A stretch of 57,433 nucleotides of DNA, the filler included, from Basidiobolus meristosporus CBS 931.73 (lineage: Eukaryota; Fungi; Basidiobolomycota): NCBI GenBank assembly GCA_002104905.1. It is 3 parts of 3 records of this genome, joined end to end, with 100 filler letters (N's around TTAATTAATTAA, not from the genome) between each part and the next. Parts side by side here need not be neighbours in the genome. Positions count along the whole stretch, not along the records: positions 20,207 to 39,136 come from MCFE01001044.1; positions 39,237 to 57,433 come from MCFE01001067.1; 1 more part is not named here. The stretch is one strand, 5' to 3'. The position numbers and the translations under genes were made by a program. The notes below the pieces were generated by a model. It was given only the letters and a program-made list of their open reading frames with translations, did not search any database and was not told where the DNA came from. Positions 36,399 to 57,433 of the stretch are shown in pieces; position 1 is the first letter of the stretch, and each line of letters begins with the position of its first letter.

Positions 36399-36921
36399 GG
36401 GGGAGGAAAGTCACCAAGTGGTGAAATCTTTATTTACTTATAACAAGTATTTACAGAAGCCATGTTTATCTGAAGTAATTCCTAGAAAGCTAGGTCTGAA
36501 AGATATCTTCCTGGTAAGCCAGGTCTAAGAGTCGAGAAGCTGAGTGGTGCTGTATTTCCTAGTAAGCTAGGTCTGAGAGAGGTTTCCTGGAAAGCCAGGC
36601 CTGAGAATTGAGAATCTGAGTATATCTGAGGTGATTTGTACTGATTTGCGGTATCTGATTTATGGCCCAAATGGCCAGTAGACCAGGGGAACTGAGGGGA
36701 ATATCTGGGCAATCACTGGCCATATTTACTAGGTAAATCTGACCAATTAGCATTTCAAGAATTTCAGCCAATCAGAGCCTTTACTTTGCCCAATGGTTGA
36801 TCAAGCCATCTCCCAATGAGCACACATCAATTTATTGATCAAATTTGTTGGATCCAGGATTTGAACTCACAACCATGGGTATGGAAGGGTTAGGGATAAC
36901 CACAAGGCTAAGTGTTTTTGG
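36399..36921 (-). mobile_element. Telomere-associated tRNA-derived SINE, copy 1 (full length, most diverged)
   Basis: A box 36900-36910, B box 36857-36867 (one mismatch), four internal hairpins, and a 3' tail shared with the RT element; colinear with copies 2 and 3. Confidence 0.85.
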
Positions 36922-36932
36922 TTGGGTTAGGG
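36922..36932 (+). repeat. Telomeric remnant TTGGGTTAGGG between SINE1 and RT copy 1
   Basis: Read directly from the sequence. Confidence 0.8.
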
Positions 36933-38364
36933 GGGGAGACAGTCACCAACAGGTGAAATCTTTATTTCAGTTGAAACAAAGAAGCCAGCACTACTGTTGT
37001 AGCTTTGATACAAGAGTGTGTAGCTGAGGGGAATTTGTAGGTAAGTTAATAAGAAGTGATGATAGTTCTTCAGTGCTCAAGACACTGTTCAGTGGGAAGG
37101 GGGGTAGCAAGAGAGGTAAGAATGACTTGTGAACAACATTAATGAGGGGAATGTGATAAGGATTGATGTTCATCATAAAGGGAGTGTGCTGCTGCAGATA
37201 TTGCTGCCAAAGGTCTGTCAAGTACTTCAGGTAGGCCAGCTTGGGTTTTTCTGACTGCAGAATAAATTCAGCAAACTTCTTGACTTCAGGATCTCCAAGT
37301 ATAGTTCTCCAGCAGGAGCCAGGTGTTGTGTGGTGTGTTCTCTTCCAGGCCTTAATCAGTGGGTTGCTGCAGTTGTGAAGTCTGAGGTATAATCTGGTTC
37401 TAAGGTAGAGAAGTCTGATCTTATAGGGCATAAACCCAAAAGCACCAAGAATAGCATGTCTGTAGGGGCATTCAGGCAAATGTGGCACCAAGGAGGTAAT
37501 GCACCATACTGCAAACTTGTCAAGCTTAGTGCAGTCTCTAGAAGTAAGAGAGAGAAGTGGTAAGCCAAATTCCAGGACAGGGAAGACAAACTGCTTGAGT
37601 AGAAGGAGGCAGCTGGGAGCTGAAGTTGTAGGAGGAGTAACAGCCAGTAGCTTGTGGAGTGCCTGTCTTGCCAGGATAATTCTCTTCTTCAGGTGTGCTC
37701 CAGAGTCTAGTCCAGTAGGAAGGAAAGGAAAGCCAAGATATATAGCAGAAACCTGAGCAGGTAGAGTGGAGTTCTCCAAGCTGATGGGAGAGCCCAAAGG
37801 TACTGTCTTTGCAATGGAAAGCTGGAGATTATTCTTCTGCAGATACTGGTGGATGGTCTGGGAGTCTTGTTGCACATTGGAGGAGGATATTCTGATGTCA
37901 TCAGCAAAGAGAGTAACCAGGCAGTCAGCTGAGAGTCTTGGGAAATCATTCAGGAAGATGGCAAACAGTATAGGACCAAGCACAGAGCCTTGAACCACTC
38001 CATTAGGAACTGAGAACACAGCTGATTGCTCACTTGGGTGCAGAATTCTTGCTTGTGGATCCAGAAACAGAGACCTGACAAGGAGGGTGAGAGAGGTACT
38101 GGAGAAGCATTGCAACTTGGACCAAAGCAGATTTCTGTCAACTGAATCAAAGGCCTTAGTAATATCAAACAGAACAGAGGGATACTTGCACTGGAGAGAG
38201 TGATCTTGGCTAAGTATGACTGCATATTCCAAGGAGAGGCCAGGAACAAAGCCAAACTGTGCAGGATGAAACTTGAGTGAGTCAGAGTAGAGCTCCTGAG
38301 CAAGCAGAAGCTCAAACACCTTTCTGCAGGTGGGCAACAGAGATATTGGCCTGTAGGAGCTAGG
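36930..38364 (-). mobile_element. Telomere-associated non-LTR retroelement, copy 1 (5'-truncated; RT/C-terminal frame 36991-38364 open)
   Basis: YRPISLL, QFGF, DITKAFDSV, GVVQGSVLGPILF, FADD and YLG are LINE-class RT motifs; ~60-nt 3' UTR with AATAAA, a hairpin and a C-run. Confidence 0.95.
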
Positions 38365-38383
38365 GTTAGGGTTAGGGTTAGGG
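38361..38383 (+). repeat. Short interstitial telomeric tract, TAGGG(TTAGGG)3
   Basis: Read directly; it produces the PNPNPNP in the ORF track. Confidence 0.95.
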
Positions 38384-38906
38384 GGGAGGAAAGTCACCAA
38401 GTGGTGAAATCTTTATTTACTTATGACAAGTATCTAAAGAAGCCAAGTTAATCTGAAGTTATTCCTAGAAAGCTAGGTCTGAGAGATATCTTCCTGGTAA
38501 GCCAGGTCTGAGAGTTGAAAAGCTGAGTGGTACTATATTTCCTAGTTAGCTAGGTCTGAGAGTGGTTTCCTGGAAAGCCAGGCCTGAGAAGTGAGAATCT
38601 GAATATATCTGAGCTAAGTTATCATGGTTTGCGGTAGCTGAATTGTGGCCGGAATGGCCAGTAGACTGGGGGAACTGAGATGTATTTCTGGGCGATCACT
38701 GGCCAAATTTACTAGGCAAATCTGGCCAAGTAGCATTTCAAGGATTTCAGCCAATCAGAGCCTTTACTTTGCCCGATGGTTGATCAAGCCATCTCCCAAA
38801 GAGCACACATCAATTTATTAATCAAATTTTTGCTGGATCCAGGATTTGAACCCACAACCATGGGTATGGAAGGGTTAGGGATAACCACAAGGCTAAGTGT
38901 TCTTGG
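38381..38906 (-). mobile_element. Telomere-associated tRNA-derived SINE, copy 2 (full length)
   Basis: A box 38885-38895 (TAGCCTTGTGG), B box 38842-38852 (GGTTCAAATCC), hairpin array at about 38464-38583, shared 3' tail. Confidence 0.88.
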
Positions 38907-39136
38907 TTAGGGTTAGGGTTAGGGTTAGGGTTAGGGTTAGGGTTAGGGTTAGGGTTAGGGTTAGGGTTAGGGTTAGGGTTAGGGTTAGGTTAGGGTTAGG
39001 GTTAGGGTTAGGGTTAGGGTTAGGGTTAGGGTTAGGGTTAGGTTAGGGTTAGGGTTAGGGTTAGGGTTAGGGTTAGGGTTAGGGTTAGGGTTAGGGTTAG
39101 GGTTAGGGTTAGGGTTAGGGTTAGGGTTAGGGTTAG
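38907..39136 (+). repeat. Telomeric array (TTAGGG)n with two TTAGG variants, running into the gap
   Basis: 230 bp of TTAGGG repeats ending at the N spacer. Confidence 0.98.
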
Positions 39137-39236
39137 NNNNNNNNNNNNNNNNNNNNNNNNNNNNNNNNNNNNNNNNNNNNTTAATTAATTAANNNNNNNN
39201 NNNNNNNNNNNNNNNNNNNNNNNNNNNNNNNNNNNN
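39137..39236. other. Artificial scaffold spacer (N44-TTAATTAATTAA-N44)
   Basis: Same 100-nt linker as at 20107. Confidence 0.97.
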
Positions 39237-40953
39237 CAGAAGTTGATGTGTGGCCCCTTGTAGCTGTAGCTTCCTCAAAAGCACAGGTATTACAACTCTA
39301 TCATATGCCTGCTTTAGGTCAATAAACACTCTGTTTGGCCGATGATGGGACCCTAATAGATGAAATGCATCATGGGATACCACCAAGTGGGAGATTGCAG
39401 AGTAGCCCTTTCTAAAGCCAGCTTGCAAGTAGTGAAATCCCGAGAGAGCTAGGGAGTTCATATATTGGAGAAGACAAGCCTCAAATAATCTCCTGTACAT
39501 GGCTGTTAGTGCCACTGGCCGGAATCCATCAATGGTTGCTGAAGATGATTTCTTTGCAATGGGATGTATATGCGAGATGTTCCACTTTGAAGGAGTACAG
39601 CCAAGCCTTAGACAGGAGTGAAATAGTTTTAATAAGTCATCAACAAATGCTGATGATCCGCATAAAACTTTGATAATCTTGATGTGCCATGGGATCCTCT
39701 CCAGCAGACTTAGATGATGGATACTTTTGAATTACAGCCAGTAATGCACTAGGAGTAAACCATTCTGAAGTAGAAAGCTGGTCCTTAAAATATAGACCGC
39801 TTGGCGGTATATAGGTGCCACTATAATCTATGTTGGAAGGCATTGCAAATATTTGCTTAAAATAAAGCACAGCATCGTCTAAAGCAGATAAATTGGGATC
39901 TCTGGAATTGATGCAACGGCTGGAGCACTGAGACTTTTGTGAGTTTTTAAAAAGCATTGCCGCCTTATTTGCTGCACTAGAGGAGTCTAACTTGGCAAGT
40001 AACAGCTTCTCGGTATTGTTAGGCTTACTTCGCACATGCTGTACAGAATAGCTCCCTAGGAAGTATTCGCAAATTGACACTACAATAGAGTCAAAGATTG
40101 TATATACAGCATCTATTGCTGCAACAATGTCTGGAGTTGGACTAGAAACATGTAATGAATCCAACAATCTCCAAGCAGCTTTTATAGGAGCTGATTTAGA
40201 TTCTAACGCATATTGCGCTAGAATAAGATTCTTGATGATAGGCTTTTCAAGAGGTTGCAGAAAGAGCTTGGTAGAGTCCGAACTAGATAATGGAATTGAA
40301 GGAGCCCAACTAAGAGAAATCTCAGCCAGCATAAATGCATGGTCTGAGAGGTCATTAAGGGAATTAGATTGAAATAACCAACTACCAGCAGCACTATAGC
40401 TGACAAAAGCATGGTCTGGGGTATTTCTTGGAGGGTTTGGTACTAAATGATTGAGCCCTAACTGGAAGGCCATTTGCGCAAATATATCAATACGATTTCT
40501 TGGTCCTACTCTTTGCGATCCATAAGCACTCCCAAAGTGCGTATTGATATCACCAAGTAGTAGAGTGAGTGGATCAGAAGGTAGGTACTGAGCAAGGGTA
40601 GAGCATGACATGGATGGTGGAAAGTAAACCGCCATGATGCTTGCTGCAAGTAATTTGACAGAGATTGTATATTGGGTTGCAACCACGCTAGATACTTGAT
40701 TTCTAAGATGCGGGGAGATTAGGCATATGAGACCTGCCTTGTGGTGTCCCCGATCAGAGCTAGGAGCAACTCTTTCTGATGAGGCAAGAAAATATGGATG
40801 TGAAGCATGTAAGCTTTGATCCACAAACCATGTTTCAGCTAAAAAGATTATGTCGTATGAGCTTTTCATTAAGCAAAGTATCTTGTTCCACTTGATTATG
40901 CTTAGTCCCTGACAGTTCCAGAAACCTATCTTTAGAAAGGTTTGCTTCATCAT
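39237..40953 (-). pseudogene. ORF2 (AP endonuclease + start of RT) of an APE-type LINE; 1-nt frameshift near 39687; 3' part lost in the gap
   Basis: IGFWNCQGL, IFLAETW, LLGDIN, PDHAF and LSDH are APE motifs. A frame change after SAGEDPM restores HIKIIKVL...WNISHIHPIAKK...FRPVAL, continuing to QAGFRKG and FIDLKQAYDRV (RT domains 1-3). Confidence 0.92.
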
Positions 40954-42536
40954 TGGCAGTCTGATGGGGAGTGCTCACTTAAGCTTTTTACTAATGAACA
41001 TGTAGGACTTTCAGCAATAGCTGCTGTTTCCATAGATGTACCGTTAGTACCTTGCTTTTCAGTGTTAGTTTCTAGTGGTATGCCACATTCTTTTGCTAAA
41101 GCAGCCAAATAGTTCTTATAAATTGTATCGTTGGACAGTGTATAAGACTGCTGTATGCGCTTAACATATGCTGCCTTAACCTTTTGTGCAACTTCGGTTG
41201 AAGCATTTGGATCTGATGGTTTTGAAGGATCCAGCTTTGATAACAGTGTCAAGAAGGGATATTTTTTCACGTGTGCAACAAATGAATGTGCATATGATGC
41301 AGCAATAGTGAATTCTAAGGTGTTTTTTCCAATAAAATCTATACTCCATATCTTTGAGAGCTGAAATCTCAGATCATAGAGAATGGTTTTAACATCCCTA
41401 ATCCGCTGATGTTGTATTCCTCTGAGATATATGCGACAACATTGATGCTGCTCTTCTGCATGAGTAGTAGTGTATGGAGGTTTTGCTCCAACACATTTTC
41501 GCATAGCTGCTTGCATCCGTGCAATTTCCTCTCTTGTTCCGGTCTTAGCATTTTTTTTAGCTATCTCGGCAAATGTTGGTTTGTGGATTTTTTTTGCTAT
41601 TGTGTACTCATTAGGTACATTGGTTGTTGCTGAAGTGCTGGCATGTGTGGTCACTGTAGGGAGCTCACATCGTGTTGTATCCTGAAAGGCAGCTTTTCCT
41701 TGGTCCAATGACTTCTGCTCATCCAGAACCAACTCTGTGAGACTACTGCAACTTTGAGCAGTGCCAAGCTGTCCCTTTTGGACTTCGAGAAGATTCTCTA
41801 TTAGAATAGTTAGCTTGTCTATTCTTGAGTCAAAAGAAGCTATTTTTGCCTCCATTGACCGCAAACTCTGCTCTAATGAAAGGATTCTTGCTGTAGTGCT
41901 AGTAGAATTTGGGTCTTGTTGTAATGGGGAGTAGGCTTTTCGCTTTCTTGAATGCTTTGGTTTGTGCTCATATGGATTGCTGACAGAAGGTAAGCTTGGT
42001 GAATGTAGTGCTATATCCGGTTTAGATTTGTTGTACTCAAGGCTATATAAGCTGCCTGCTGGCGTTCCATTCATTGATTCATCGTCAGAAGAGGTGCCAG
42101 AGTGCTCACGCTCACATGATGATGAAATTACGATTTCCAAGTTATGAGAGTGATTTTGAATAAGTTGTGCAGCGGGCAGATGGTCAGCTTCGGACTCTGA
42201 ACAAGCGGCCCATAAGGCATTTGAGGCTTTAGCCTTGATTGGAAGCAAGTCCTCCGAAAGTAGAAGGCATTCAGTCCAGAATTGCAAGGCCTTGTATTTG
42301 GTGGAGCAGTGCTTACACTTGAAACAGCCATAAGTAGCACTACCCACTCCATTAGAATCCTTAGTAAAGCCGTAGCCAGGACCACACTTCGGGCATATTG
42401 CTTTATTCCTATTACTCTCATAATAGGCAAGTGCGGATTTACTTGGCTCCAGAGACCAATACCAACCCCTTGGCGGGTTAGTTGTAGATGGGTTAGGGGA
42501 ATTCATGTTGGGGCTAATATTCCGAGATAAAGACAT
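40950..42536 (-). CDS. LINE ORF1 (gag-like) protein, 528 aa, intact
   Basis: Lies directly upstream of and overlapping ORF2; has a CPKC-x17-CKHC zinc-finger-like motif, a coiled coil (ILSLEQSLRSMEAKIASFDSRIDKLTILIENL) and a C-terminal RRM-like block (RIYLRGIQ...IDFIGKNTLEF). Confidence 0.8.
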   Translation of the reverse strand: MSLSRNISPNMNSPNPSTTNPPRGWYWSLEPSKSALAYYESNRNKAICPKCGPGYGFTKDSNGVGSATYGCFKCKHCSTKYKALQFWTECLLLSEDLLPIKAKASNALWAACSESEADHLPAAQLIQNHSHNLEIVISSSCEREHSGTSSDDESMNGTPAGSLYSLEYNKSKPDIALHSPSLPSVSNPYEHKPKHSRKRKAYSPLQQDPNSTSTTARILSLEQSLRSMEAKIASFDSRIDKLTILIENLLEVQKGQLGTAQSCSSLTELVLDEQKSLDQGKAAFQDTTRCELPTVTTHASTSATTNVPNEYTIAKKIHKPTFAEIAKKNAKTGTREEIARMQAAMRKCVGAKPPYTTTHAEEQHQCCRIYLRGIQHQRIRDVKTILYDLRFQLSKIWSIDFIGKNTLEFTIAASYAHSFVAHVKKYPFLTLLSKLDPSKPSDPNASTEVAQKVKAAYVKRIQQSYTLSNDTIYKNYLAALAKECGIPLETNTEKQGTNGTSMETAAIAESPTCSLVKSLSEHSPSDCQ

Positions 42537-42732
42537 ATTGAAAATTGCATAAATTATCCGTCCACATTTCCATTACTTTAAATATAAACAAAAGCAGCAA
42601 CGGTTTTAGAGGCTAGAAATAGATCACAGCGAACAGCATAGAATGTTTCATGGCTGTATCACCCCATTCCAACTGGACTGCTGATGACTAGGTAAATACT
42701 ATATGCGAGTATCTTGCCACATCATAGCCAGC

Positions 42733-42871
42733 CATGTTGGGTATTTGGTGTATACGAAACATGTTGGGTATTTGGTGTATACAAAACATGTTGGGTATTT
42801 GGTGTATACGAAACATGTTGGGTATTTGGTGTATACAAAACATGTTGGGTATTTGGTGTATACGAAACATG
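42733..42871. repeat. 27-bp tandem repeat x5 (CATGTTGGGTATTTGGTGTATACRAAA), alternating G/A
   Basis: Read directly from the sequence. Confidence 0.97.
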
Positions 42872-43632
42872 GCATACAATCTCAAGATGAATATTGACAG
42901 GATTACTCCCCAAAATCCCATGGACACATTATTGCATGTGTTACGCCATCAAGTTTGAGAGGGAGGAGACACAGTGCAGATCAAAATCAAAACAATAGAT
43001 CGATCAACAGTGCAGCATTCAAAAAAAAGGGCAAGCTATGACTTCCTGATACAGTATGGCACCGCGCGGCAGCAAAGTGCACCAAAGTAAGGTTAGGATG
43101 ACTAGCTTTAAAGAATCTTCAACTACCACAGTAGGTGCTAAGAATTGTGGGCTTGCCGTTCCAAAACTGAAAACAGTCTAGGGTTGCGGTTTTAATACGT
43201 TAGCAAATATCTGGTACTAAACGAAGACTACTTCAACAAGTTAATCTAAAGGGTCATATGTGATAGAGGTTGGTGATACACTAAAAAAGTGCGCCGTATA
43301 CTAATTACCTCCTTTAGGCACTAGCAAAGCTCTGTAGCAATCCTTGTATACTAAGGCGAATCTGGTTTTGGATACCTGTTGCCAGTCAGCCCAAGAACGA
43401 TATCTGTTCCAGGCTCAAGTTCACGTGAGCTAGGCATCATTCGATCAGATCCTGTTATTCTCGGAAAATATACCAAGTGGCTTAGAAGGAACTATTTTGG
43501 GTTTCTTGCAGGTCCGTTTCGTGGAGTACCAAGATATCGACTGTTCTGCACCGTAAACTAACGCTGGTTCCGAGAAACCATCTACTTGATGTGATTACTC
43601 TACTATGCCCCTTGTATGAAAGGAGAAAACCA

Positions 43633-43752
43633 CTAGTCACAAACAGGTTTGGATTGTCAACAACAGGACATTCTAGTCACAAATAGGTTTGGATTGTCAA
43701 CAACAGGACATTCTAGTCACAAACAGGTTTGGATTGTCAACAACAGGACATT
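43633..43752. repeat. 40-bp tandem repeat x3
   Basis: CTAGTCACAAACAGGTTTGGATTGTCAACAACAGGACATT three times, with one substitution. Confidence 0.97.
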
Positions 43753-45884
43753 GACCAGGTTGCTTGCTTGTTTAGTTTGACAGAGGCTATGCTAGTTGAT
43801 ATTCTTCAACTCGTTGACCTGCCTATTACAATCGATTCACACAGTTCTAAGATTGAGAAGAGTCTTATTGAGGTCCTGAGGGAAGGAGCCTTTTGGGGTG
43901 CTCTGCTCAGCATATCCAAATCCAGTGAAACGTTGCGAGGTAATCACCGTTTATTGCGGGTTGCACAGGTCATACATACTGGCACAGAGCTCCTCTCCGA
44001 GGGGGAAGTATCTGTAATGGCTATAGAACAACTGCAAGCTCTGCCGCAACACGACATCATCCCAATTATGAAAGCCGCTCAAGAAATCCTTCATCTCCCC
44101 GTATGTACTCTCTCGACAGAGGAGCTCGCAAATTTTTATAGGGAATGTAGGCTGGCAAGAACTCGGATGCGCACCTTAAACAGATTTCTCGGGGTGTGTG
44201 TTTTGACTAATGCTATGGATGCTGGCGAGGTACTGTGCCAGTTAAAAGACATGGAGAAGTCGATAGATGCCTCTAAACTATCATCTATTTCAAGTGCTTG
44301 TTTCTGGGACGTTAAAGTGTGCTGACCAAATACTATGAAGTAGGGACTTTTACAAATATACTAAAATCCATGTCCTCGAAAAAAGATATGCTACTGGTTG
44401 CGGATATAGCAGCCACCTTTTTTCCTGCCGCTATTCAAGCATATTCTCAGCATGCCAAGCTCTATGATGATTGGCAAAAAATCTCCCTGAAAGAAATCGA
44501 ACAAGTATGGGAACGAGTGCCCGTAAAGGATGCGGAGAAGGAGTTGCGATTCCTGAGGGAAGAGAGCAGAGACGACTTCAAGCCGTAAAGTCCTTCATTG
44601 ATCTCGTGTAATGCCGGTCCAAGAAATCAAAGCAATCTATGGTGCCCCAGAATGCTACACCTCATCGGTGGCAACCGAGGATATATTGACCAACTTGAAG
44701 TCACCAGAGCATACCTTGGGAAGCTACCAGCAAGCACTCGGAAGAATTCAGCAACTCCTCAATTCCTACGATCGCCGGTTTTGGAAACTGTTGCAAGAGA
44801 TGGTATCCGGGAAGGATTTTCTTCAATTCCTGACTGCTGTAGTCGAGAATGACTTGCGGAATATGATGATGCGCGTGTGATCCAGGAGGAAACAATCTTT
44901 TCCATGATCGAAGTCCAAAGATCCCTAAAACCGGTTCTTCAAGCAATCCATACCTGGAGGGAGGCCCCACTTCTCAATATCCTCCAAGAAATTGCCAGGG
45001 ACAATCCGGTGCTACATTCAAGAATTAGTATGTTGCCCTTCAAAATCTATACAACAATATTGCAAATCGTGGAGAAGCTACGAAGGATAAAATAGCCAAT
45101 GCTGTTAAGCGTGGGACGTACGACTTTGTCTTCCAAGAAAGGGTGGATGTTTTGCTGAATTACCGCGGAGAATCTAAGCAGACGTCACTTGCTGAGCTTC
45201 AAGATCTTTGTGGAAGGGCAAGGCTGTATGCCAAGTCCGCCATGTCAGAAGCGAAGTCCTTATCGCTGGGAGCTGGAAAAGACGAGGAGCATATGGTGGA
45301 CATCATGCACGAGTTTGTGCAGATCGTGGATACTATACAGGGCATGATACCAATTGCTACCAAGCTGATCCGACTGGGCCACCTGAAGTATATCAATTTC
45401 GTCCGGAAAGCTGTCAGAAAGTCCAAGTTGGTGGCCCTGGCTACGGAACTCAAGGAGGATTTGCAAGATCTGTTGTTTATCATCGGTGATGCGCAGCGAG
45501 AAAACTATTACCTGACATTCTACAATCCACACGATTTCCTGATCTTTTACCAGTACTTCTATCAAATTGTTACCCAGGCGATGCTGATATTCCGACTAAA
45601 TGCCACGATCTACTTCGATTCTACCACCCGAAAGCGCCATCTTTCGATCATGCACTCCTCGTGGCTGAAAATTACTCACTTATCCTTTCGTATATTGGGA
45701 GTCGTTTGAGGGATGTCCTTGGCGACCTTCCGAAAACCGTCCATACAGCATGCCACAGTCCACACTGGATATTGTTCAGCCGGGAAAGTTGTTCGTAGTT
45801 GCCTGCGCCAGCCGATACCAAACATCGTAATATCGCTGTTTGTGAACTGTAAACAGTATTCACAGCCATGGCAAATAATGATTT

Positions 45885-46005
45885 GCCGCTCCAGCACTAC
45901 AGAAGAAGAGATCCGATGTTTCCTAAGCCGCTCCAGCACTACAGAAGAAGAGATCCGATGTTTCCTAAGCGCTCAGCACTACAGAAGAGATCCGATGTTT
46001 CCTAA
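45885..46005. repeat. 42-bp tandem repeat, about 3 copies, inside the RNF213-like pseudogene
   Basis: GCCGCTCCAGCACTACAGAAGAAGAGATCCGATGTTTCCTAA twice plus a shortened third copy. Confidence 0.95.
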
Positions 46006-48855: not shown

Positions 48856-48993
48856 ATTGGCAGTAATCAGAGACCAAAGTTTAGGAGATTGGCAGTAATC
48901 AGAGACCAAAGTTTAGGAGCATTGGCAGTAATCAGAGACCAAAGTTTTAGGAGATTGGCAGTAATCAGAGACCAAAGTTTAGGAGATTGGCAG
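48856..48993. repeat. 32-bp tandem repeat x4 inside the RNF213-like pseudogene
   Basis: ATTGGCAGTAATCAGAGACCAAAGTTTAGGAG four times, with two 1-nt insertions. Confidence 0.95.
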
Positions 48994-51900
48994 ATCGAAG
49001 TCGCAAGTACCAGCAAGACCTTTATGTGGCCTCGTCCCTGGTTGACGCACTTAAGGATCGGCTTCATAAAACTGTTCGCCGGATTGTTTCTCCTATCATC
49101 TATATTTTGGAGCAGTCCCACATCCTTGATGCCTATTTCAGGCAAGTGGAGCTACCGCTAAAAATCATGGATAAAAAGCAGGTCTGTGACCCAGTGAGCT
49201 TGCATATGTTCGTTTGGCGTCACTTCACAAAGGTCATTGAGATTGCAAAACTAGTAAGGAAATTCCCCGAGTGGGAATTGTGGGTTGCGAGCAGCAACAG
49301 CACTGGGGTTAATTTCACTAATTCATTCCTGGAGTATGCGGTCGCTAGTATGGTTGCGAAGCTTCGAGCAACAGAAGAGAGTAGACCTGCCTTTATGCAA
49401 TGGTATCTTGATGTCTGCTCTGTCTTGTCTGTAGTGGAGATTGTTGTCGGCAGCGTACAATGGGACAATCGAAGACTCTTGGAATTTCTAAGTAAACTGG
49501 TCAAGGACATAGTTCTATTAGCTGGCTGCACTACTGCTCTAATCTCGGAGTTTCTTCCAAGCAAATCAAACGCTCAGTTAGATGAAATCTTCAACTTCGA
49601 TTACGCACGAAATTTCCTTGACATAGTGGAACAAACACACCAGGATGTTGAGGCGATACGGAGAGCGTATTTTTCACGACTTCTCGCCGTGGTCTCCGTT
49701 AAATCGCCTTTACGATCAAGGCTCTATCAAGAACTATTCTCTGGTGAACCACTGCTTTTAGTTGAAAATATTTTAGGGGATATTATTCTTGAGGATGATG
49801 ACAAGATGGTGCTCTTGAATCTTTTTATCCCTATTGCTGGTGACGCAAACGCTTACACTCGGATGAAAAACATCAACAACGCATTTAGCGAGTCTGGTAT
49901 CTTTTCGCCAACTGCAGTGCAACTCTGTGACGCTCTCCAAAGATATCTTTATCCCCAGTGTGAAGAATGGTTTGGCCACTGCGTAGATTTAGCAATGCGA
50001 ATCGTTGCCACACCCAAACCAGAGCCATTAAGTATCGTTTGCTTAATTGCGTTTCTTAAGGTAACCGTAGCTACGTTCTGGAAAGGTCTGTTAGAAGAGC
50101 GCTCTTTTAAGCAGGCAATGGACATGACGCTCGATATTACTGTGATAAATCGTTATCAAGCCCTATATCAGATGATCATTTCTGCAGCCCTTTAAGGTTT
50201 ATCTAGTCAAACAGCTTCGAACGAGGATACAAACATTTTTAACCCAAAAACAATGGCCTTGCAGTTGGTTCTCGTCACTTCATTGGAGGGCCAAGGCTAC
50301 TCTAGGAGTACCAAGAATTGACCTAAATCCATATTGGCTAGTCGAAGGCTATAGTAAGGTGGATGCTGTTCTCACCCATATAGATTCGGTCGTTGAACTG
50401 AGTGAAAGATCTCTGCTGTCACAACCATTGACTGCTTGTTTCATCGAGCAACACTGAATTTGAATGCAACCTCACCAATGGTTGGAAGAATTCACACCCA
50501 GTGCATCCAAATAGCTCAGGTGCCTTCTTGTGGGGAGATTCAGAGCTTCTTACTACAATCTACGCTTAAAAGTGACCACCCAATGACAAATATCACTCCG
50601 GAGTCCTCAGATATGATGTTGTCTCAGTGGCCCATCATCTTGTGAGTAAGCACTCTAGCCTAGACCCAATGAAAAATCCCTTGGCCTTGTATCTCCACGA
50701 TCTAGAGAAAGCGCAAAACTCCTATATTCTCACTTGCTACTCAAGCCTAGAAGACGACGATTTGGTGGGATCGATACGAAAGGATGATCCGAGAGTACAA
50801 AGGTATAATCGATTTAAGAGAGATTTCACAGGTTGACTAACTTTTTTTCAGCTACAAGTGCAAGTGTGGATACCGGTATGTAATTGGGGACTGCGGGAAA
50901 TGTCCAGAATGTGGTGCGCGACTCGGTGGCTCTGACCATGTACTAGTGCCGAGCAGCTTGCGGTTACCAACAACCGAGAAGGAATATGATAGGGTTGGTT
51001 ACCTGGTCGAGTCCGCTTCTCCCTGTAAATCAGCTACTGTACGTGATATGTCATGTATCGCCTACAGAATCCTGCACCTGTTTGTTCATTCTCTCCGTTG
51101 GTCAGTCAAGTGATTCAATCCAAGAAAACGGGAATGGCATTTGAAGGGTCTGCAAGTGAATATTGCCGAAAACATGTGGAGAATGACTGGGTGATTTTGA
51201 GGCAACTGCTCCATTCAAATGATCTCTGTTGCATACCATTATATTGAGCTTCAAAAATCTGGAACCGGCAAACCTTAAAACAAGCAAAGAAAGAGAGATC
51301 TGGGAGACAACGTTTGAGCAGAAATATGTTCTTCCCTACACAAGCAACCTGTCATCCACTGCCCATGGATTTAGGCAACAAATTGCCGGATCTGATTCAC
51401 TCAAAAATGAAATTGAAGAAACAAACCTTATTGTTCCAAGCAAGGAATGTAGGTACCTCTCCTCACTATGGCGCAATACTGCTCAGCCAACTAGGGATGG
51501 ACTTCTTTCATACTTTTGGGCATCGAATAGCAGCCGGCAGGAACACCCTTTCCTGGAGATCTTATTTCGACAAATTTACTTCTGATGCAACATCTTTACC
51601 CCATAGTTTGTTTTGTCATCGTGCTGCACAGGCGACTCTTGCACCGCATATCCCGAACTGACGCTTTACAAATCACATTCAGCAAGTTGTTCAGTCAAGA
51701 GGACTTAGGCTTAACTGGTAAACCTCTGCGGGCACACCAGGATAGCCTCATAGATCTGTTCACATCGTTTGAGTATGCGAGCATGTGAGATATTATCGAT
51801 GCCACGAATTTCGGCAACCAATTCCAAAGATCTCACTGGAGAGTAGTATTTGTATGGCCTTGGTGGATGACAAGGATCTTTGCGCAATCCTAGAGCACCT

Positions 51901-53946
51901 TTGCAATATCCAATCACGCTTTATAGCCGATGTCCTGGCCATCGATATCAAATCCTGTATGCCTCTGAAGTTTGCCGAGAGCACTGTGGAGAATTCCGAA
52001 GGAGATTCAGTACTGCAGATACCCCTGGTGCAGCTCGAGATGATTCGAGAAAGTCAGATAGTTGACTATTCGTGGAGTGATGATCTACTTGACTTTAGTC
52101 AGTATAATCTGGAGTATGGACAGGGGCTTGCGGTGATATATGACTTGCAGAAGATTGAAAACGAGCTGGTTGCACACTTGATGGTCGGCAAAGCAATTGT
52201 ATTTGTGGAGGATGGAAGCCCGCCGCTCCCGTACTTTCAATACCAATCAGAGCTGTTCTGCAACTCGGCACGCTTGATGGCAGAAATCCGGAAATTCATT
52301 CCCCAGGAGACAGCTCCTATTGAGAAACAAGCGATGATCATGACTATTGACAAGAAGGAACCATCCAAGCTACTCGGCAATTTTGACATATTACTCTCCT
52401 TTTTGCGGCAAACTCCTGGCCATCCTGATCAAATGATTATCGAGTACGAGAAGATGTGGAACTTGGGCAGCGGGCTGGTTGATGCTGATACCAGGGAAGT
52501 GTTTGGCACTTGGCAGCTAAAGCATATATTATGCCTGTATGTCTATATCGAGGAAGTCGTGCCTGATTTTATTCTGGGCTCCATCGATAAGCAGTATCAA
52601 CCTGAGCTTTCTGCCGAAAAGAAACGGCTACTACAGACCAATTTGCCATACGACTCGAGCAGTTTTGCCGTTATTGCCGGCTCACTGAAACGGTTTATGC
52701 TACAAAGCCTGGCCTATAAAAGCGTTAGGCCTGTAGATCGACTGCTAGACTACATGATAGACAATTTGCTCAAATACTGGCCATCCGAGTACAAAGAGGA
52801 TAAAATTGAGAGTAGCATCCCAGAGTGTATCTTGGTGGAAGAGACCCTGGAGTTTTACAACTGGGTGAATCAACATATAGCGCAGGTAATAATGACTTGA
52901 ATGCTGGATTTAATAATACTTAACTCGAACCTTCAGTAGTCAAGCAGATGTTCCACCGTTGGAGAGACCACAGGCAACACTGCACGCCCCAAGGGCAAGG
53001 AAAAAATGGCTCTTCCTGAGAAGAAAGCTCGGAAATTCAATCGAGCATAGTTTGCCTAACACATGCTCACAATGATGCCATTTGGCGATTCGTGCCATTG
53101 TTGTATATTACTTGGCAATTGAGCCACGGAATGCTGGTAATATCTATTTTTTCCAGGTCGCAGATGCCTTTAATACATACTGCCAAAGTAGTAGATCTAC
53201 TCAAAGGCTAATGATTAAACAAAAGATTTTCAGCATGGGGTATGATATGCATTTCATTTGATAAAGCATAGAGAAGCAGTGTCACTAAGGTAATGAAATC
53301 CCAGCTTGGACTAAGATCAGATGAAATCACAAAATATTGTTTCTGGTTTAAGTTTTGGAGATATTTTAAGTGACTGGGCACACAGGTGGACTATGTAGTT
53401 TTCACTTATTGATCCTGTGGATGAAAAGGTAGTTTTTATACATTCCAAGACACCTGATGCTTTAGTATAATCCAACACCATATTTATTCACAGAATTGTG
53501 AAGCTTTTTAAGCGTTGCTTTTAGTTGCTGTAGTACTTCCTGAGGAAAATTGTGACCTGGAGGGAAGGTGAGCTCTTCAATATGCTGAAGTATATTTTGA
53601 CCAGCTTTAATCTAAAGAGAACAGCACAAAGAGAGCACTATTGTAGTGAAAACCATAGATATATCCCTTGGGCTCCCAATTGACAATATGGCTGACTTCA
53701 TCTTTGTGTTTTGTCAGTAGCAGTCAAGTATAGAACTACTGTGATTGTATCCTAGCTACATAATGAATTTAATAAGTTTAGGCATGTAAATGCTAAGTGT
53801 ATTCAGGTAGCTTCCATGATTTGCCAATAAAGGACATGCAGTATTTCTCAAGTAGCAAGCTGTTTGATTGGCAAATACAGAAGACTTTCATAGCACAATC
53901 TATATGATATGCAGATATGAGGCGTGTATCAGGTATGAGGGGGCAT

Positions 53947-56650
53947 GGAGCACAGTCACCAACAGGTGAAATCTTTATTTCAGTTGAAACAAAGAAGCCA
54001 GTGCTACTGTTGTAGCTTTGATACAAGAGTGTGTAGCTGAGGGGAACTGGTAGGTAAGTTAATAAGAAGTGATGATAGTTCTTCAGTGCTCAAGACTACT
54101 GTTCAGTGGGAAGGGGGGTAGCAAGAGAGGTAAGAATGACTTGTGAACAACATTAATGAGGGGAATGTGATAAGGATTGATATTCATCATAAAGGGAGTG
54201 TGCTGCTGCAGATATTGCTGCCAAAGAGTCTGTCAAGTACTTCAGGTAGGCCAGCTTGGGTTTTTCTGACTGCAGAATATAATGAGCAAACTTCTAGACT
54301 TCAGGATCTCCAAGTATAGTTCTCCAGCAGGAGCCAGGTGTTGTGTGGTGTGTTCTCTTCCAGGCCTTAATCAGTGGGTTGTTGCAGTTGTGAAGTCTGA
54401 GGTATAGTCTGGTTCTAAGGTAGAGAAGTCTGATCTTATAGGGCATAAACCCAAAAGCACCAAGAATAGCATGTCTGTAGGGGCATTCAGGCAAATGAGG
54501 CACTAAGGAGGTAATGCACCATACTGCAAACTTGTCAAGCTTAGTGCAGTCTCTAGAAGTAAGAGAGAGAAGTGGTAAGCCAAATTCCAGGACAGGGAAG
54601 ACAAACTGCTTAAGTAGAAGGAGGCAGCTGGGGGCTGAAGTTGTAGGAGGAGTAACAGCCAATAGCTTGTGGAGTGCCTGTCTTGCCAGGATAATTCTCT
54701 TCTTCAGGTGTGCCCCAGAGTCTAGTCCAGTAGGAAGGAAAGCCAAGATATATAGCAGAAACCTGAGCAGGTAGAGTGGAGTTCTCCAAGTTGATGGGAG
54801 AGCCCAAAGGTACTGTCTTTGCAATGGAAAGCTGGAGATTATTCTTCTGCAGATACTGGTGGATGGTCTGGGAGTCTTGTTGCACATTGGAGGAGGATAT
54901 TCTGATGTCATCAGCAAAGAGAGTAACCAGGCAGTTAGCTGAGAGTCTTGGGAAATCATTCAGGAAGATGGCAAACAGTATAGGACCAAGCACAGAGCCT
55001 TGAACCACTCCATTAGGAACTGAGAACACAGCTGATTGCTCACTTGGGTGCAGAATTCTTGCTTGTGGATCCAGAAACAGAGACCTGACAAGAAGGGTGA
55101 GAGCGGTACTGGAGAAGCATTGCAACTTGGACCAAAGCAGATTTCTGTCAACTGAATCAAAGGCCCTAGTAATATCAAACAGAACAGAGGGATACTTGCA
55201 CTGGAGAGAGTGATCTTGGCTAAGTATGACTGCATACTCCATGGAGAGGCCAGGAACAAAGCCAAACTGTGCAGGATGAAACTTGAGGGAGTCAGTGTAG
55301 AGCTCCTGAGCAAGCAGAAGCTCAAACACCTTCCTGCAGGTGGGCAGCAGAGATATTGGCCTGTAGGAGCTAGGATCCAGGTGCTTTCCTTTACCCTTGT
55401 ACAGTGGCAGAACATTTGCAAAGGACCATTCCTCAGGAGTAGAAAGCTGGGGTGAGCATTGGTGAAACAGTGGAAGCAGAAGTGCAGACATGGCCTTGGT
55501 ACTAGTCTTCAGAAGCTCATAGGAGATTGTGTCCACATCTGGAGCAGTAGAGTTGGGAAGCCTCTTGAGCACATTATGGATTCTCCTTTGATCAAGTGCA
55601 AGTGGGATGGGCAGAGTCTTGAAGTCAGGATGAAAGCCAGGAGTTGAGTACTGCTTTATAGAGAAGAAGATGTTAGCCAGCTGTTCTGTTGAAGGTAACT
55701 TCCTGGAAGAGGGCCTCATTGCCCTGTAGAGTCTTGATACTGCTCTTGTTATAGAGTTGGAAGATTGCAGAGGCAAAGAACTCATAATATGATCCCAGAG
55801 CTGAGTATGCAGAGTGTGGTGAATTGCCTTGGAGTGGTGTATGTGTTGTATCCAAGAGAAAGTGTAATAAAACTCTTGAATGGTTTAACTGAACCAAAGG
55901 GACAATTAAGTGCAGAATCTTAGAATTGTCAGAGAGTGGCAGAAATATTAGCAGAAAGATTCTGATCTAATATTGGTCTTGGATATAGCTGGGTTGGCTA
56001 TAAAGGCAATGATATTTGTTTGCTAGGCAGGCTAGGCTTGGTGTTCTTTGGAGTGCTAGATATACTAGGCTTGGATAGAAACTAGAACGGAATTGTTGGA
56101 TTCTTATTTTTGCTGAGACAGAATCTTAATTTCGTTGAGACACACACTAAACCAAAAGGTTCAGTAAACTTTATTTATACTTTTCTGATCAAGTTGAATT
56201 AGTCAGCGCCAAGGGACTGGATTGATTGAAATCAATTTGGGTGTTCATAGGTGCATAAGACAAATGAAAATTACATCATCAATCAACTGATGTCTTGGCA
56301 ACTGCACAGTGGTTGGATAGATCTCAGATGACTAATCACCTGGGAAGGCTTGGCAGATAGGTTGATAACGTAATGACCATTTGAAAATAGATCAGGTGTG
56401 ATAGCTAAAAATAGATTCTGATGTGGGATAAAATAAACTGTAACTGGGATTTGTTATGTTTGGGTTAGGGAAAATCAGTTAGGGTACTAGATTTTCAAAC
56501 GGAGTAAAATTGGCTAAGCTTTAAATGTTGATGCACAACAGTATGGCTGTCAGGAGGAGTTTCTCTGTTTTTGGGTTAGGGAAACTCAGGTAGCTTTGTT
56601 GCAGGGCTGAAACAATGGATTCCCATTTTCTTGAGGTAACAGCAGTAGGG
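53947..56650 (-). mobile_element. Telomere-associated non-LTR retroelement, copy 2 (longest, ~2.7 kb; RT frame 54004-55785 disrupted)
   Basis: Near-identical to copy 1 over 1.4 kb and extends further 5' (KRLPNSTAPDVDTISYELLK, EEWSFANVLPLYKGKG). Carries a 5-nt deletion near 54737 and a nonsense codon at 54294-54296; the upstream 0.85 kb has stops in all frames. Confidence 0.93.
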
Positions 56651-56715
56651 GGGAGACAGTCACCAACAGGTGAAATCTTTATTTCAGTTGAAACAAAGAA
56701 GCCAGCGCTACTGTT
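56648..56715 (-). mobile_element. RT element copy 3: ~68-nt 3' stub (3' UTR + stop codon)
   Basis: GGGGGGAGACAGTCACCAACAGGTGAAATCTTTATTTCAGTTGAAACAAAGAAGCCAGCGCTACTGTT matches the 3' end of copies 1 and 2. Confidence 0.92.
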
Positions 56716-56716
56716 A

Positions 56717-57242
56717 GGGGGAGGAAAGTCACCAAGTGGTGAAATCTTTATTTACTTATGACAAGTATCTAAAGAAGCCAAGTTAATCTGAAGTAATTCC
56801 TAGAAAGCTAGGTCTGAGAGATATCTTCCTGGTAAGCCAGGTCTGAGAGTTGAGAAGCTGAGTGGTACTATATTTCCTAGTTAGCTAGGTCTGAGAGAGG
56901 TTTCCTGGGAAGCCAGGCCTGAGAAGTGAGAATCTGAATATATCTGAGCTAAGTTATACTGGTTTGCGGTAGCTGAATTGTGGCCAGAATGGCCAGTAGA
57001 CTGGGGGAGCTGAGATGAATTTCTGGGCGATCACTGGCCAAATTTACTAGGCAAATCTGGACAATTAGCATTTCAAGGATTTCAGCCAATCAGAGCCTTT
57101 ACTTTGCCCGATGGTTGATCAAGCCATCTCCCAATGAGCACACATCAATTTTATTAATCAAATTTTTGCTGGATCCAGGATTTGAACCCACAACCATGAG
57201 TATGGAAGGGTTAGGGATAACCACAAGGCTAAGTGTTCTTGG
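56717..57242 (-). mobile_element. Telomere-associated tRNA-derived SINE, copy 3 (full length)
   Basis: Only about 14 differences from copy 2 counted by eye; A box 57221-57231, B box 57178-57188. Confidence 0.88.
57178..57231 (-). promoter_or_regulatory. Internal RNA Pol III (type 2) promoter of the SINE: A box + B box
   Basis: TAGCCTTGTGG-32 nt-GGTTCAAATCC, with tRNA-like spacing; conserved in all three copies. Confidence 0.78.
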
Positions 57243-57433
57243 TTAGGGTTAGGGTTAGGGTTAGGGTTAGGGTTAGGGTTAGGGTTAGGGTTAGGGTTAG
57301 GGTTAGGGTTAGGGTTAGGGTTAGGGTTAGGGTTAGGGTTAGGGTTAGGGTTAGGGTTAGGGTTAGGGTTAGGGTTAGGGTTAGGGTTAGGGTTAGGGTT
57401 AGGGTTAGGGTTAGGGTTAGGGTTAGGGTTAGG
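57243..57433 (+). repeat. Terminal telomere (TTAGGG)n
   Basis: Uninterrupted TTAGGG to the end of the window, G-strand pointing outward. Confidence 0.99.

What the first reader, a model, noticed from the sequence alone, without database searches (positions are those of the whole stretch)
36399..57433. Candidate new telomere-specialised LINE/SINE system building head-to-tail arrays at two chromosome ends
Seen: end 1 is unique DNA-SINE-TTGGGTTAGGG-RT element-(TTAGGG)~4-SINE-(TTAGGG)n. End 2 is relic DNA-RT element-TAGGG-RT stub-TTAGGG-SINE-(TTAGGG)n. All six elements are on the C-strand with 5' ends distal, so their cDNA would be primed from a G-strand 3' end. Established: telomeric retroelements include Drosophila HeT-A/TART, insect TRAS/SART (APE), Magnaporthe MoTeR (RLE type) and endonuclease-less Penelope-like Athena/Coprina. 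Inference: this RT is LINE-class rather than Penelope-like, shows no RLE, and is paired with a tRNA-derived SINE. I know of no description of that combination at fungal telomeres. It may act alongside telomerase to extend or heal ends.
Basis: partly seen in the sequence, partly recalled or inferred. Interest (0 to 1): 0.93.

Follow-up and report, generated by a model that had tools for sequence, protein, structure and literature searches.

The report
Telomere-stacking LINE and SINE in fungus
At two chromosome ends of a fungus (likely Basidiobolus), a reverse-transcriptase retrotransposon and a short non-coding element with the same 3' tail are stacked head-to-tail under the TTAGGG telomere, and they likely get there by copying their RNA from the telomere's G-rich strand, which would be an independent origin of telomere-targeting in fungi.

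Summary
The arrays are real. Two contigs end in LINE and SINE copies, all on the C-strand with 5' ends distal, 0-3.5 TTAGGG units apart, capped by (TTAGGG)n. Read contigs of one sample show the family is abundant, with many 5'-truncated copies joined to the next element's fixed 3' end through telomere-like letters. LINE and SINE share a ~55-nt 3' tail with hairpins ending in a C-run. Correction: the LINE is not shown to lack an endonuclease. Window copies are 5'-truncated, and relatives at 50-82% identity carry an N-terminal APE domain. No RLE or zinc knuckle is present. The SINE has A/B boxes but no tRNA match. Near-identical proteins are from Basidiobolus meristosporus. It works like Magnaporthe MoTeR1/2 and silkworm TRAS but belongs to neither tested family: an APE-LINE of an unplaced long-branch lineage, with a Pol III-type SINE partner. 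Ten paper searches found no description. Genome-wide telomere specificity, clade and telomerase status could not be tested (no genome held). Verdict: new variant of a known kind; interest 0.63.

The parts
36399..36921 (-). SINE copy S1, most proximal at end 1, joined to unique DNA without a TTAGGG unit; most diverged copy
   Evidence: 90.8% and 91.4% identical to S2 and S3, which are 97.3% identical to each other
36922..36930 (+). Short telomere-like linker (TTGGGTTAG, running into the G-run of E1)
   Evidence: sequence
36931..38364 (-). LINE copy E1: 5'-truncated at the start of the RT domain; ORF open to its stop (36991), 60-nt 3' UTR; no CpG
   Evidence: 0 CpG observed, 71 expected
38365..38383 (+). 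Interstitial telomere, (TTAGGG)3, in phase with the TAGG at which E1 is cut off
38382..38903 (-). SINE copy S2, full length: A box 38895-38885, B box 38852-38842, a CCCTAACCC motif between them, internal ~77-bp duplication, LINE-type 3' tail
38905..39136 (+). Terminal (TTAGGG)n of contig 2, 232 bp, two TTAGG variants
53938..55843 (-). LINE copy E2, 3' part (linker, RT, thumb, helical C-terminal part, 3' tail); frameshifts near 54097, 54227 and 54735 that most read contigs lack
   Evidence: table 4; 97.3% identical to E1
55844..56540 (.). 697-bp insert in E2 with TGTTG...CAACA ends and a GTATG duplication; likely a solo LTR, not part of the LINE
   Evidence: empty-site joint 55838>56541 in read contigs
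56541..56645 (-). LINE copy E2, 5' remnant: 35 codons of the endonuclease-RT linker; truncated before the endonuclease
   Evidence: tblastn 80% to P0001 residues 18-52 and 68% to P0122 residues 281-311
56648..56715 (-). 68-bp 3' stub of the LINE
   Evidence: 98.5% identical to the E1 3' end
56717..57240 (-). SINE copy S3, full length, directly under the telomere
57241..57433 (+). Terminal (TTAGGG)n of contig 3, 193 bp

Best explanation
A LINE retrotransposon and a SINE that shares its 3' tail lie in head-to-tail arrays under the TTAGGG telomeres of this fungus, and they likely insert by target-primed reverse transcription after the LINE's predicted APE endonuclease nicks the G-rich telomere strand. 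Shown: the arrays, their polarity, fixed 3' ends with variable 5' truncation, the shared hairpin tail ending in a C-run, telomere letters at most junctions, and an APE domain in relatives of 50-82% identity. Inferred steps: (1) ORF2 protein binds the 3' hairpins of LINE or SINE RNA (stringent tail recognition), the SINE being made by Pol III from its A/B boxes. (2) The APE nicks the G-strand at or near TTAG/GG. (3) The RNA's terminal C-run pairs with the G's at the new 3' end and primes cDNA synthesis outward, so no poly(A) is copied. (4) The often truncated 5' end is rejoined to distal repeats or recapped by telomerase. (5) Repeated rounds, and breakage at the short internal repeats, leave old copies proximal and young copies distal.
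For: Geometry and chance control. Retrotransposition signature in read contigs of one sample: 11 of 15 joints shown (of 194) and 15 of 15 shown (of 30) end at the 3' end of a LINE or SINE, starting from scattered internal positions. In 20 of the 24 joints printed with their letters (3 with long linkers and 1 duplicate left out), the G-run of the incoming element is preceded by TA in 16 and TTA in 13, against 5.4% and 1.2% background in the elements. Diverse proximal flanks: 30 contigs (median 212 nt) before the LINE 3' end, and 36, 10 and 8 contigs at three LINE places and 23 at the SINE 3' end. The consensus next to the LINE end reads AGGGTTA. The dispersed-element control, the LTR-like insert, has diverse flanks on both sides (33 and 39 contigs), whereas only 23 contigs in all run over either end of the stretch whose right end is the SINE 5' end. 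Tail: two hairpins, z -3.7 to -3.9 in 4 of 4 tails folded. APE: P0122, P0273, P0123, P0278, P0125 and P0121 keep GDxN, the catalytic D and SDH (6 of 6). The model of P0122 (pLDDT 85.8) matches L1 ORF2p with its endonuclease and APE1/ExoIII folds. Age polarity: proximal S1 and E2 are the most decayed. Precedent: APE-directed telomere targeting by TRAS1/SART1 (PMC1919474 passages).
Against: No endonuclease sequence of the window's own family was seen; it is inferred from relatives whose genomic positions are unknown. The metal-binding Glu is Asp in 5 of 5 family sequences that cover it, against Glu in 56 of 59 other LINEs, so activity is uncertain. All four inter-element linkers in the window are at most 3.5 units in telomeres of about 32-38 units, and the two junctions to unique DNA have no clean TTAGGG, which fits end-priming as well. 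At read-contig joints the truncated element's own continuation is mostly not telomere-like (read by eye), so these are not pre-existing targets. The read tables show only the best-supported rows (6 of 136 and 20 of 1686 loose-end places), contigs break at long repeats, and the tool drops human-like records, so interstitial copies cannot be counted. Runs X1-X3 are one sample and may be the window's source.
Confidence: 0.55

Rival explanations
1. End-priming (healing). The RT needs no nick: it captures free G-ending 3' ends of broken or very short chromosome ends, often after telomerase has added 0-3 units, or jumps from one RNA template to the next. The APE is weak or serves end-processing. The elements would then patch and extend ends alongside telomerase.
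For: Linkers of 0-3.5 units. Telomere units completed from 1-4 nt seeds of the truncated element (TAGG at 38364, GTT at 56715). Junctions to unique DNA without a repeat tract. Glu-to-Asp change at the APE metal site. Basidiobolus ranarum is reported to have about 60 to many hundreds of small chromosomes (PMC3281927 passages).
Against: The other APE catalytic residues are kept across members only 45-67% identical to P0122, which implies selection for activity. Equally short linkers occur with nuclease-bearing MoTeRs (half a unit to >20) and FoTeRs (3-7 units).
Confidence: 0.27
2. An ordinary dispersed APE-LINE/SINE pair with a loose preference for TTAG-like sites. It accumulates at gene-poor ends, and the arrays are spread by subtelomeric recombination or break-induced replication.
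For: The family is abundant (summed contig depth 10^5-10^6 against 10^2 on unique flanks; not a copy number). Many diverse proximal flanks. B. meristosporus gene models P0002 and P0126 lie on scaffolds of 177 and 117 kb at unknown positions. Break-induced replication is known to extend MoTeR arrays.
Against: 6 of 6 copies in 57 kb are within 3.5 kb of a telomere and in one orientation. No target-site duplications. The flank pattern is one-sided, unlike the LTR-like control. Truncation points differ between arrays.
Confidence: 0.13
3. Assembly artefact: collapsed repeats stitched to telomere reads.
For: The elements are high-copy, and no listed contig spans a whole array.
Against: Read contigs hold many independent element-to-element joints of the same kind, including SINE 5' end to SINE or LINE 3' end (57240>56713, 57240>56649). 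Window copies carry private mutations. A B. meristosporus gene model runs through three tandem LINE pieces (P0002).
Confidence: 0.03

Closest known systems
MoTeR1/MoTeR2 (Magnaporthe/Pyricularia oryzae) and FoTeRs (Fusarium oxysporum)
   Same: Fungal TTAGGG telomeres; head-to-tail arrays, 5' ends toward the tip, short interstitial repeats, many 5'-truncated copies; MoTeR1 has a non-autonomous partner (bioRxiv 10.1101/845669 passages; PMC12857005 passages).
   Different: Those are RLE elements grouping with CRE/SLACS/Cnl1; this one has an N-terminal APE (in relatives) and no C-terminal RLE. MoTeR2 shares 860 bp 5' and 77 bp 3' with MoTeR1; here the partner has its own A/B-box head and shares only the ~55-nt tail with the part of the LINE that could be seen.
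TRAS1/SART1 (R1 clade, Bombyx, Tribolium) and Tx1-1_ACar (Anolis)
   Same: APE-type LINEs inserted in telomeric repeats beside telomerase; specificity set by the endonuclease (PMC1919474, PMC10088271, PMC4640811 passages).
   Different: Animal hosts. SART1 ends in poly(A), whereas this element ends in a C-run. No C-terminal CCHC here. No SINE partner is mentioned in the passages read ('SINE' occurs 0 times in PMC10088271). Clade relation could not be tested.
Mg-SINE/MgL and SINE2-1_BG/Tad1 (fungal tRNA-SINE/LINE pairs)
   Same: tRNA-type SINE sharing a 3' tail with its LINE; stem-loop tails typical of stringent recognition (PMC3747384 passages and table).
   Different: Those pairs are not described as telomeric in that review ('telomer' occurs 0 times). 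MgL and Tad elements belong to the Tad clade, with RNase H/CCHC parts (recalled) not seen here.
Drosophila HeT-A/TART/TAHRE; Athena/Coprina Penelope-like elements; Giardia GilM/GilT
   Same: Head-to-tail terminal arrays, cDNA strand continuous with the G-strand, G-rich bias on that strand (E1 skew 0.25; the LTR-like insert has 0.30, so this is not specific).
   Different: Telomerase-type repeats are present here. The RT is LINE-class and relatives have an endonuclease, unlike Athena/Coprina.
SINEU-3 (crocodilians)
   Same: A SINE that inherits target preference from a site-specific APE-LINE and occurs in tandem (PMC4494074 passages).
   Different: snRNA-derived head; the target is a Mariner element, not telomeres.

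Membership tests
MoTeR/FoTeR (CRE-group telomeric elements) | C-terminal CCHC plus restriction-like endonuclease | tested here: not met
   No CCHC pattern after the RT in 15 of 15 family sequences; only helices after residue 687 in the P0122 model; no Pfam hit there.
MoTeR/FoTeR (CRE-group telomeric elements) | Head-to-tail telomeric arrays, 5' ends distal, short TTAGGG linkers | tested here: met
MoTeR/FoTeR (CRE-group telomeric elements) | Non-autonomous partner sharing both termini with the autonomous element | tested here: inconclusive
   Only the 3' tail is shared within the visible LINE part; the LINE 5' end was not seen.
TRAS/SART (R1 clade) | N-terminal APE endonuclease | tested here: met
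   In relatives at 50-82% identity, not in the truncated window copies; Pfam scores mostly just under the curated cut-off.
TRAS/SART (R1 clade) | RT groups in the R1 clade | not testable with these tools
   No labelled R1 references available; the tree shows a 15-sequence long-branch clade (support 1.0) with no supported sister (0.50).
TRAS/SART (R1 clade) | C-terminal CCHC zinc knuckle (recalled as typical of R1 ORF2) | tested here: not met
TRAS/SART (R1 clade) | Endonuclease cleaves telomeric repeat specifically | not testable with these tools
   Needs a cleavage assay.
Tx1-clade telomeric element (Tx1-1_ACar) | RT groups in the Tx1/L1 clade | not testable with these tools
   No labelled references; L1 ORF2p is the best solved match at only 13-17% structural-alignment identity, and it is the only APE-LINE RT among the solved matches.
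Athena/Coprina (endonuclease-less Penelope-like) | Penelope-type RT | tested here: not met
   LINE-type RT motifs and hits.
Athena/Coprina (endonuclease-less Penelope-like) | No endonuclease | tested here: not met
   APE in all full-length relatives found.
HeT-A/TART/TAHRE | Arrays replace telomerase repeats | tested here: not met
   Both ends carry (TTAGGG)n of 193-232 bp; TERT itself could not be sought.
tRNA-derived SINE (SINE2) with stringent LINE tail | Internal A and B boxes at the 5' end | tested here: met
   A box in 3 of 3 copies, strict B box in 2 of 3 (S1 differs at one base); the joint pattern appears in 8 of 20000 shuffles (consensus patterns recalled). T4 runs 0, 1, 0 against 2.6-2.7 expected (P 0.06, 0.23, 0.04), weak support for a Pol III unit.
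tRNA-derived SINE (SINE2) with stringent LINE tail | Head homologous to a tRNA or folding as a cloverleaf | tested here: inconclusive
   ARAGORN none; Rfam none at E<=5 and E<=10; head folds no better than shuffles (z -0.4 to +0.5). Old SINE heads often fail these tests (own knowledge).
tRNA-derived SINE (SINE2) with stringent LINE tail | 3' tail shared with a LINE, with stem-loop | tested here: met
   the last stem is invariant with differing loops, so there is no covariation evidence.
tRNA-derived SINE (SINE2) with stringent LINE tail | Short, non-coding, multicopy, 5'-truncated copies | tested here: met
   About 520 bp, no ORF of 100 aa within it, 13 truncation joints among 15 shown.
tRNA-derived SINE (SINE2) with stringent LINE tail | Dispersed with target-site duplications | tested here: not met
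   No duplication around S1 or E2; copies sit in terminal arrays.

The most novel reading that the evidence does not exclude
In Basidiobolus, a genus reported to have tens to hundreds of small chromosomes, an APE-LINE of an unnamed lineage and its Pol III SINE have become a chromosome-end repair system. They are added to uncapped G-ending 3' ends, and the SINE, which is the last element under the telomere at both ends, carries a CCCTAACCC motif in its head and ends in a TTGG telomere seed, acts as a mobile telomere-seeding cap. This would be the first SINE specialised for telomeres, and a telomerase-plus-retrotransposon telomere in an early-diverging fungus.
Probability: 0.2. Interest if true: 0.88.

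Novelty: new variant of a known kind. Interest (0 to 1): 0.63.

Why it matters
The telomere-targeting retroelements listed for fungi in the papers read are RLE elements of the CRE group (MoTeR, FoTeR, Cnl1), and the APE-type ones listed are from insects, a lizard and a green alga. An APE-LINE doing this in Zoopagomycota would be another independent origin, from a lineage on a long branch. A Pol III-type SINE riding along gives a small, self-promoting RNA whose tail and C-run can be mutated directly. This makes it testable whether telomeric retroelements nick the repeat or prime from the free end, an open question for such systems. It also gives a marker for counting chromosome ends in Basidiobolus, whose chromosome number is unresolved. 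The CpG-free yet open ORF suggests a family that persists under heavy cytosine methylation.

Tried and rejected
No whole genome is held, so the genome-wide copy census and the TERT search could not be run. No RNA holder was listed, which says nothing on expression. tRNA tests on the SINE head were negative. No family-level loci with flanks were found: metagenome scan with P0001, 0 of 94 candidates; with the alignment, 80 loci kept of 175, all at most 41% identical; genome contigs 5 loci at most 38%; viral contigs tail pattern 0. As a control, 3 of these 85 distant loci hold a two-unit telomere motif and none the tail. Clade placement failed for lack of labelled references; the Atlas gave only generic APE+RT clusters. 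I first took 55885-56645 for a 5' UTR with telomere-like motifs, which would have made E2 a complete endonuclease-less element; rejected, as it is an LTR-like insert plus more ORF. I considered the short beta-hairpin region of the family APE a telomere-specific trait; rejected, because the neighbouring unrelated LINE and several others share it, and the GDxN-to-Asp spacing (45) lies within the range of others (24-61). A pair count on the tail alignment was not obtained (not repeated); the one stem in register is invariant and uninformative. Earlier scan findings: none. Paper searches found no report of Basidiobolus telomeric retroelements or of a telomeric SINE. The library lacks most subscription journals and Repbase Reports, and no supplements were read.
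Full report
1. What is in the window. The window is three contigs joined by N-linkers; the second and third end in (TTAGGG)n of 232 and 193 bp with the G-strand on +. End 1 reads, outward: unique DNA, SINE S1, a 1.5-unit linker, RT element E1, (TTAGGG)3, SINE S2, telomere. End 2 reads: decayed gene DNA, RT element E2, TAGGG, a 68-bp 3' stub, one unit, SINE S3, telomere. All six copies are on the minus strand with 5' ends distal. A 26-nt pattern from their 3' tail matches 6 times, 0 in 100 shuffles, always within 3.5 kb of a telomeric end, a zone that is 11% of the window. No whole genome is held.

2. Host. Two gene models of Basidiobolus meristosporus CBS 931.73 match the RT element: P0126 at 92-100% and P0002 at up to 87-93% in its best segments. 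P0002 runs through three partial copies in tandem. I take the host to be B. meristosporus or a near relative; this rests on the transposon protein only, as no host gene was placed. B. ranarum is reported to have about 60 to many hundreds of small chromosomes (PMC3281927, passages). Two of three consecutive 18-20 kb contigs ending in telomeres fits that.

3. The LINE. E1 and E2 hit RVT_1 and their closest solved relative is L1 ORF2p. E1 starts at the first RT motif and is open to its stop, followed by a 60-nt 3' UTR without poly(A). E2 has frameshifts near 54097, 54227 and 54735; read contigs mostly lack the first two and 24 carry the 5 bases missing at the third. The 0.7 kb that looks like a 5' UTR is an insert with TGTTG...CAACA ends and a 5-bp duplication; read contigs show the empty site (joint 55838>56541). 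Beyond it the ORF goes on for 35 codons and is cut. So the window cannot show whether the element has an endonuclease.

4. Endonuclease. A search with the pre-RT linker returned three longer relatives at 60-64% and HMMER a fourth at 51% (P0125). They begin with an APE domain: Exo_endo_phos hits at E 7e-5 to 7e-3, mostly under the curated cut-off; P0125 reaches 27.5 bits against a cut-off of 27.4. GDxN, the catalytic Asp and SDH are present in 6 of 6 family sequences; Tyr93 is nearly invariant in alignment A3. These match the catalytic set listed for R1Bm EN (PMC1919474, passages), except that the metal-binding Glu is Asp in 5 of 5 family members covering it, against Glu in 56 of 59 other LINEs. 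The closest relative, P0001 (79-82% to the window RT), begins three codons after the end of P0294, a 251-aa APE ORF listed with the same source and contig length; I infer one ORF2 split by a stop. The AlphaFold model of P0122 (pLDDT 85.8) matches full L1 ORF2p and APE1/ExoIII folds, and is all-helical after residue 687, so there is no RLE. No CCHC knuckle follows the RT in 15 of 15 family sequences. In a 273-sequence RT tree the family is one clade (support 1.0) on a branch of 1.12 substitutions per site, with a weakly supported sister group (0.50) of unnamed LINEs, half of them CCHC-bearing. I could not name its clade.

5. The SINE. The three copies are about 520 bp and 91-97% alike, without a long ORF. 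The head has an A box (3 of 3) and a B box (strict in 2 of 3) at tRNA-like spacing; the joint pattern, built from recalled consensus, arises in 8 of 20000 shuffles. T4 runs are scarce on the sense strand (0, 1, 0 against about 2.7). ARAGORN, Rfam and folding give no tRNA, so Pol III type is supported and tRNA descent is only likely. The last ~55 nt align with the LINE's 3' UTR. Both fold into two hairpins (z -3.7 to -3.9, 0 of 200 shuffles) and end in 5-6 C. This is the stringent SINE/LINE tail pattern (PMC3747384, passages).

6. Beyond the window. Runs X1-X3 (one sample, possibly the window's source) hold the elements at great depth. Of the joints shown, 11 of 15 (194 in all) and 15 of 15 (30 in all) join a scattered internal position of one element to the fixed 3' end of the next. 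For 20 of the 24 joints printed with letters (3 long linkers and 1 duplicate left out), TA precedes the incoming G-run in 16 and TTA in 13, against 5.4% and 1.2% background. The truncated element's own continuation is usually not telomere-like, so the letters were added at or after truncation. The LINE 3' end has 30 contigs with diverse flanks of median 212 nt. In one search three LINE places have 36, 10 and 8 contigs and the SINE 3' end 23, though some of these may be LINE interiors absent from that stretch. The consensus beside the LINE end is AGGGTTA. The LTR-like insert has diverse flanks on both sides (33 and 39 contigs), while only 23 contigs in all pass either end of the stretch that stops at the SINE 5' end, and no SINE-5' place is among the 6 of 136 loose-end places shown. 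This one-sidedness favours terminal arrays at many ends. It is not a count: tables are cut, contigs break at repeats, and human-like records are filtered. No family-level loci were found in public contig collections.

7. Mechanism. Fixed 3' ends, variable 5' truncation, no poly(A), and a C-run facing the G's of a telomere unit point to target-primed reverse transcription from a G-strand 3'-OH (inferred). The retained APE makes a nick in the repeat the most likely source of that 3'-OH (0.55), as shown for TRAS1/SART1, where the endonuclease sets the site. Priming from free or freshly healed ends, or template jumping, is the main rival (0.27). It is favoured by linkers of 0-3.5 units, seeds such as TAGG and GTT at truncation points, and the Glu-to-Asp change; but MoTeR and FoTeR, which have nucleases, also show short linkers. 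Proximal copies (S1, E2) are the most decayed, as expected if arrays grow outward. A dispersed family pooling at ends (0.13) and an artefact (0.03) are less likely.

8. Comparison and novelty. It works like MoTeR1/MoTeR2: same geometry, same polarity, an autonomous and a non-autonomous member (bioRxiv 10.1101/845669, passages; PMC8381367, passages). It fails membership there (no RLE) and in Athena/Coprina (LINE RT, APE in relatives). R1 and Tx1, the APE clades named as target-specific (PMC4640811, passages), could not be tested by phylogeny. The survey of telomeric retroelements in PMC10088271 (passages) lists only MoTeR1 for fungi and never mentions SINEs; the FoTeR paper (PMC12857005, passages) places fungal telomeric elements in one RLE clade and does not mention SINEs either. 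Target-biased SINEs exist elsewhere (SINEU-3, PMC4494074, passages). Ten searches showed no report on Basidiobolus telomeric elements or a telomeric SINE. Subscription journals and Repbase are outside the library, and I read passages, not whole papers or supplements.

9. Verdict. Observation confirmed; interpretation partly supported. A new variant of a known kind: telomere-associated APE-LINE plus Pol III-type SINE in an early-diverging fungus. Interest 0.63. The boldest reading left open is an end-healing system with the SINE as a telomere-seeding cap (probability 0.2, interest 0.88).

Noticed in passing
window:36931-38364 and 53938-55884: The LINE has 0 CpG in 1434 bp (71 expected) with its ORF open; all Arg codons are AGA/AGG and no NCG codon is used. 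E2's single CpG is a minority allele in reads, so the family itself looks CpG-free, likely from long methylation-driven decay.
   Followed up: partly
window:55844-56540: Likely solo LTR (TGTTG...CAACA, 5-bp duplication) inside E2; multicopy and dispersed in read contigs; holds two TTAGGG motifs.
   Followed up: partly
window:39237-42572 (-): A second, different APE-LINE with a 540-aa ORF1 bearing CxxC pairs and a frameshifted ORF2, cut by the contig start; CpG o/e 0.38. P0126 fuses a piece of this kind to the telomeric LINE.
   Followed up: partly
window:43700-53050 (+): Long fragmented gene with an AAA+ domain (Atlas clusters AAA and RING-type E3; RNF213-like by recall), broken by frameshifts and short tandem duplications, just inside end 2.
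   Followed up: partly
window:36435 (loose end): Eight read contigs match only the shared 3' tail and then continue in other sequence, and P0002 holds a P0125-like divergent piece beside E1-like pieces: there may be a second LINE subfamily or another SINE using the same tail.
   Followed up: no
window:38872-38880, 57208-57216, 36887-36895: The SINE head holds GGGTTAGGG (CCCTAACCC on the sense strand, 1.5 telomere units) between its A and B boxes in all three copies.
   Followed up: no
window:17700-21240: CpG-poor repeat with ~350-390 bp subunits; the end of contig 1 and the start of contig 2 carry inverted copies 86% alike.
   Followed up: no
window:35900-36398 and 53100-53937: CpG depletion extends 0.4-0.8 kb into the DNA proximal to both arrays, as if methylation spreads from them.
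   Followed up: no
P0271, P0276: Two members of this LINE family are filed as Bacteroides fragilis proteins on contigs of 727 and 1561 bp, probably fungal contamination of a bacterial assembly.
   Followed up: no
window:3894-9218 (-): Ordinary host genes on contig 1: a GH32 glycosidase and glycogen phosphorylase; a bZIP gene lies 1.6 kb inside end 1.
   Followed up: no
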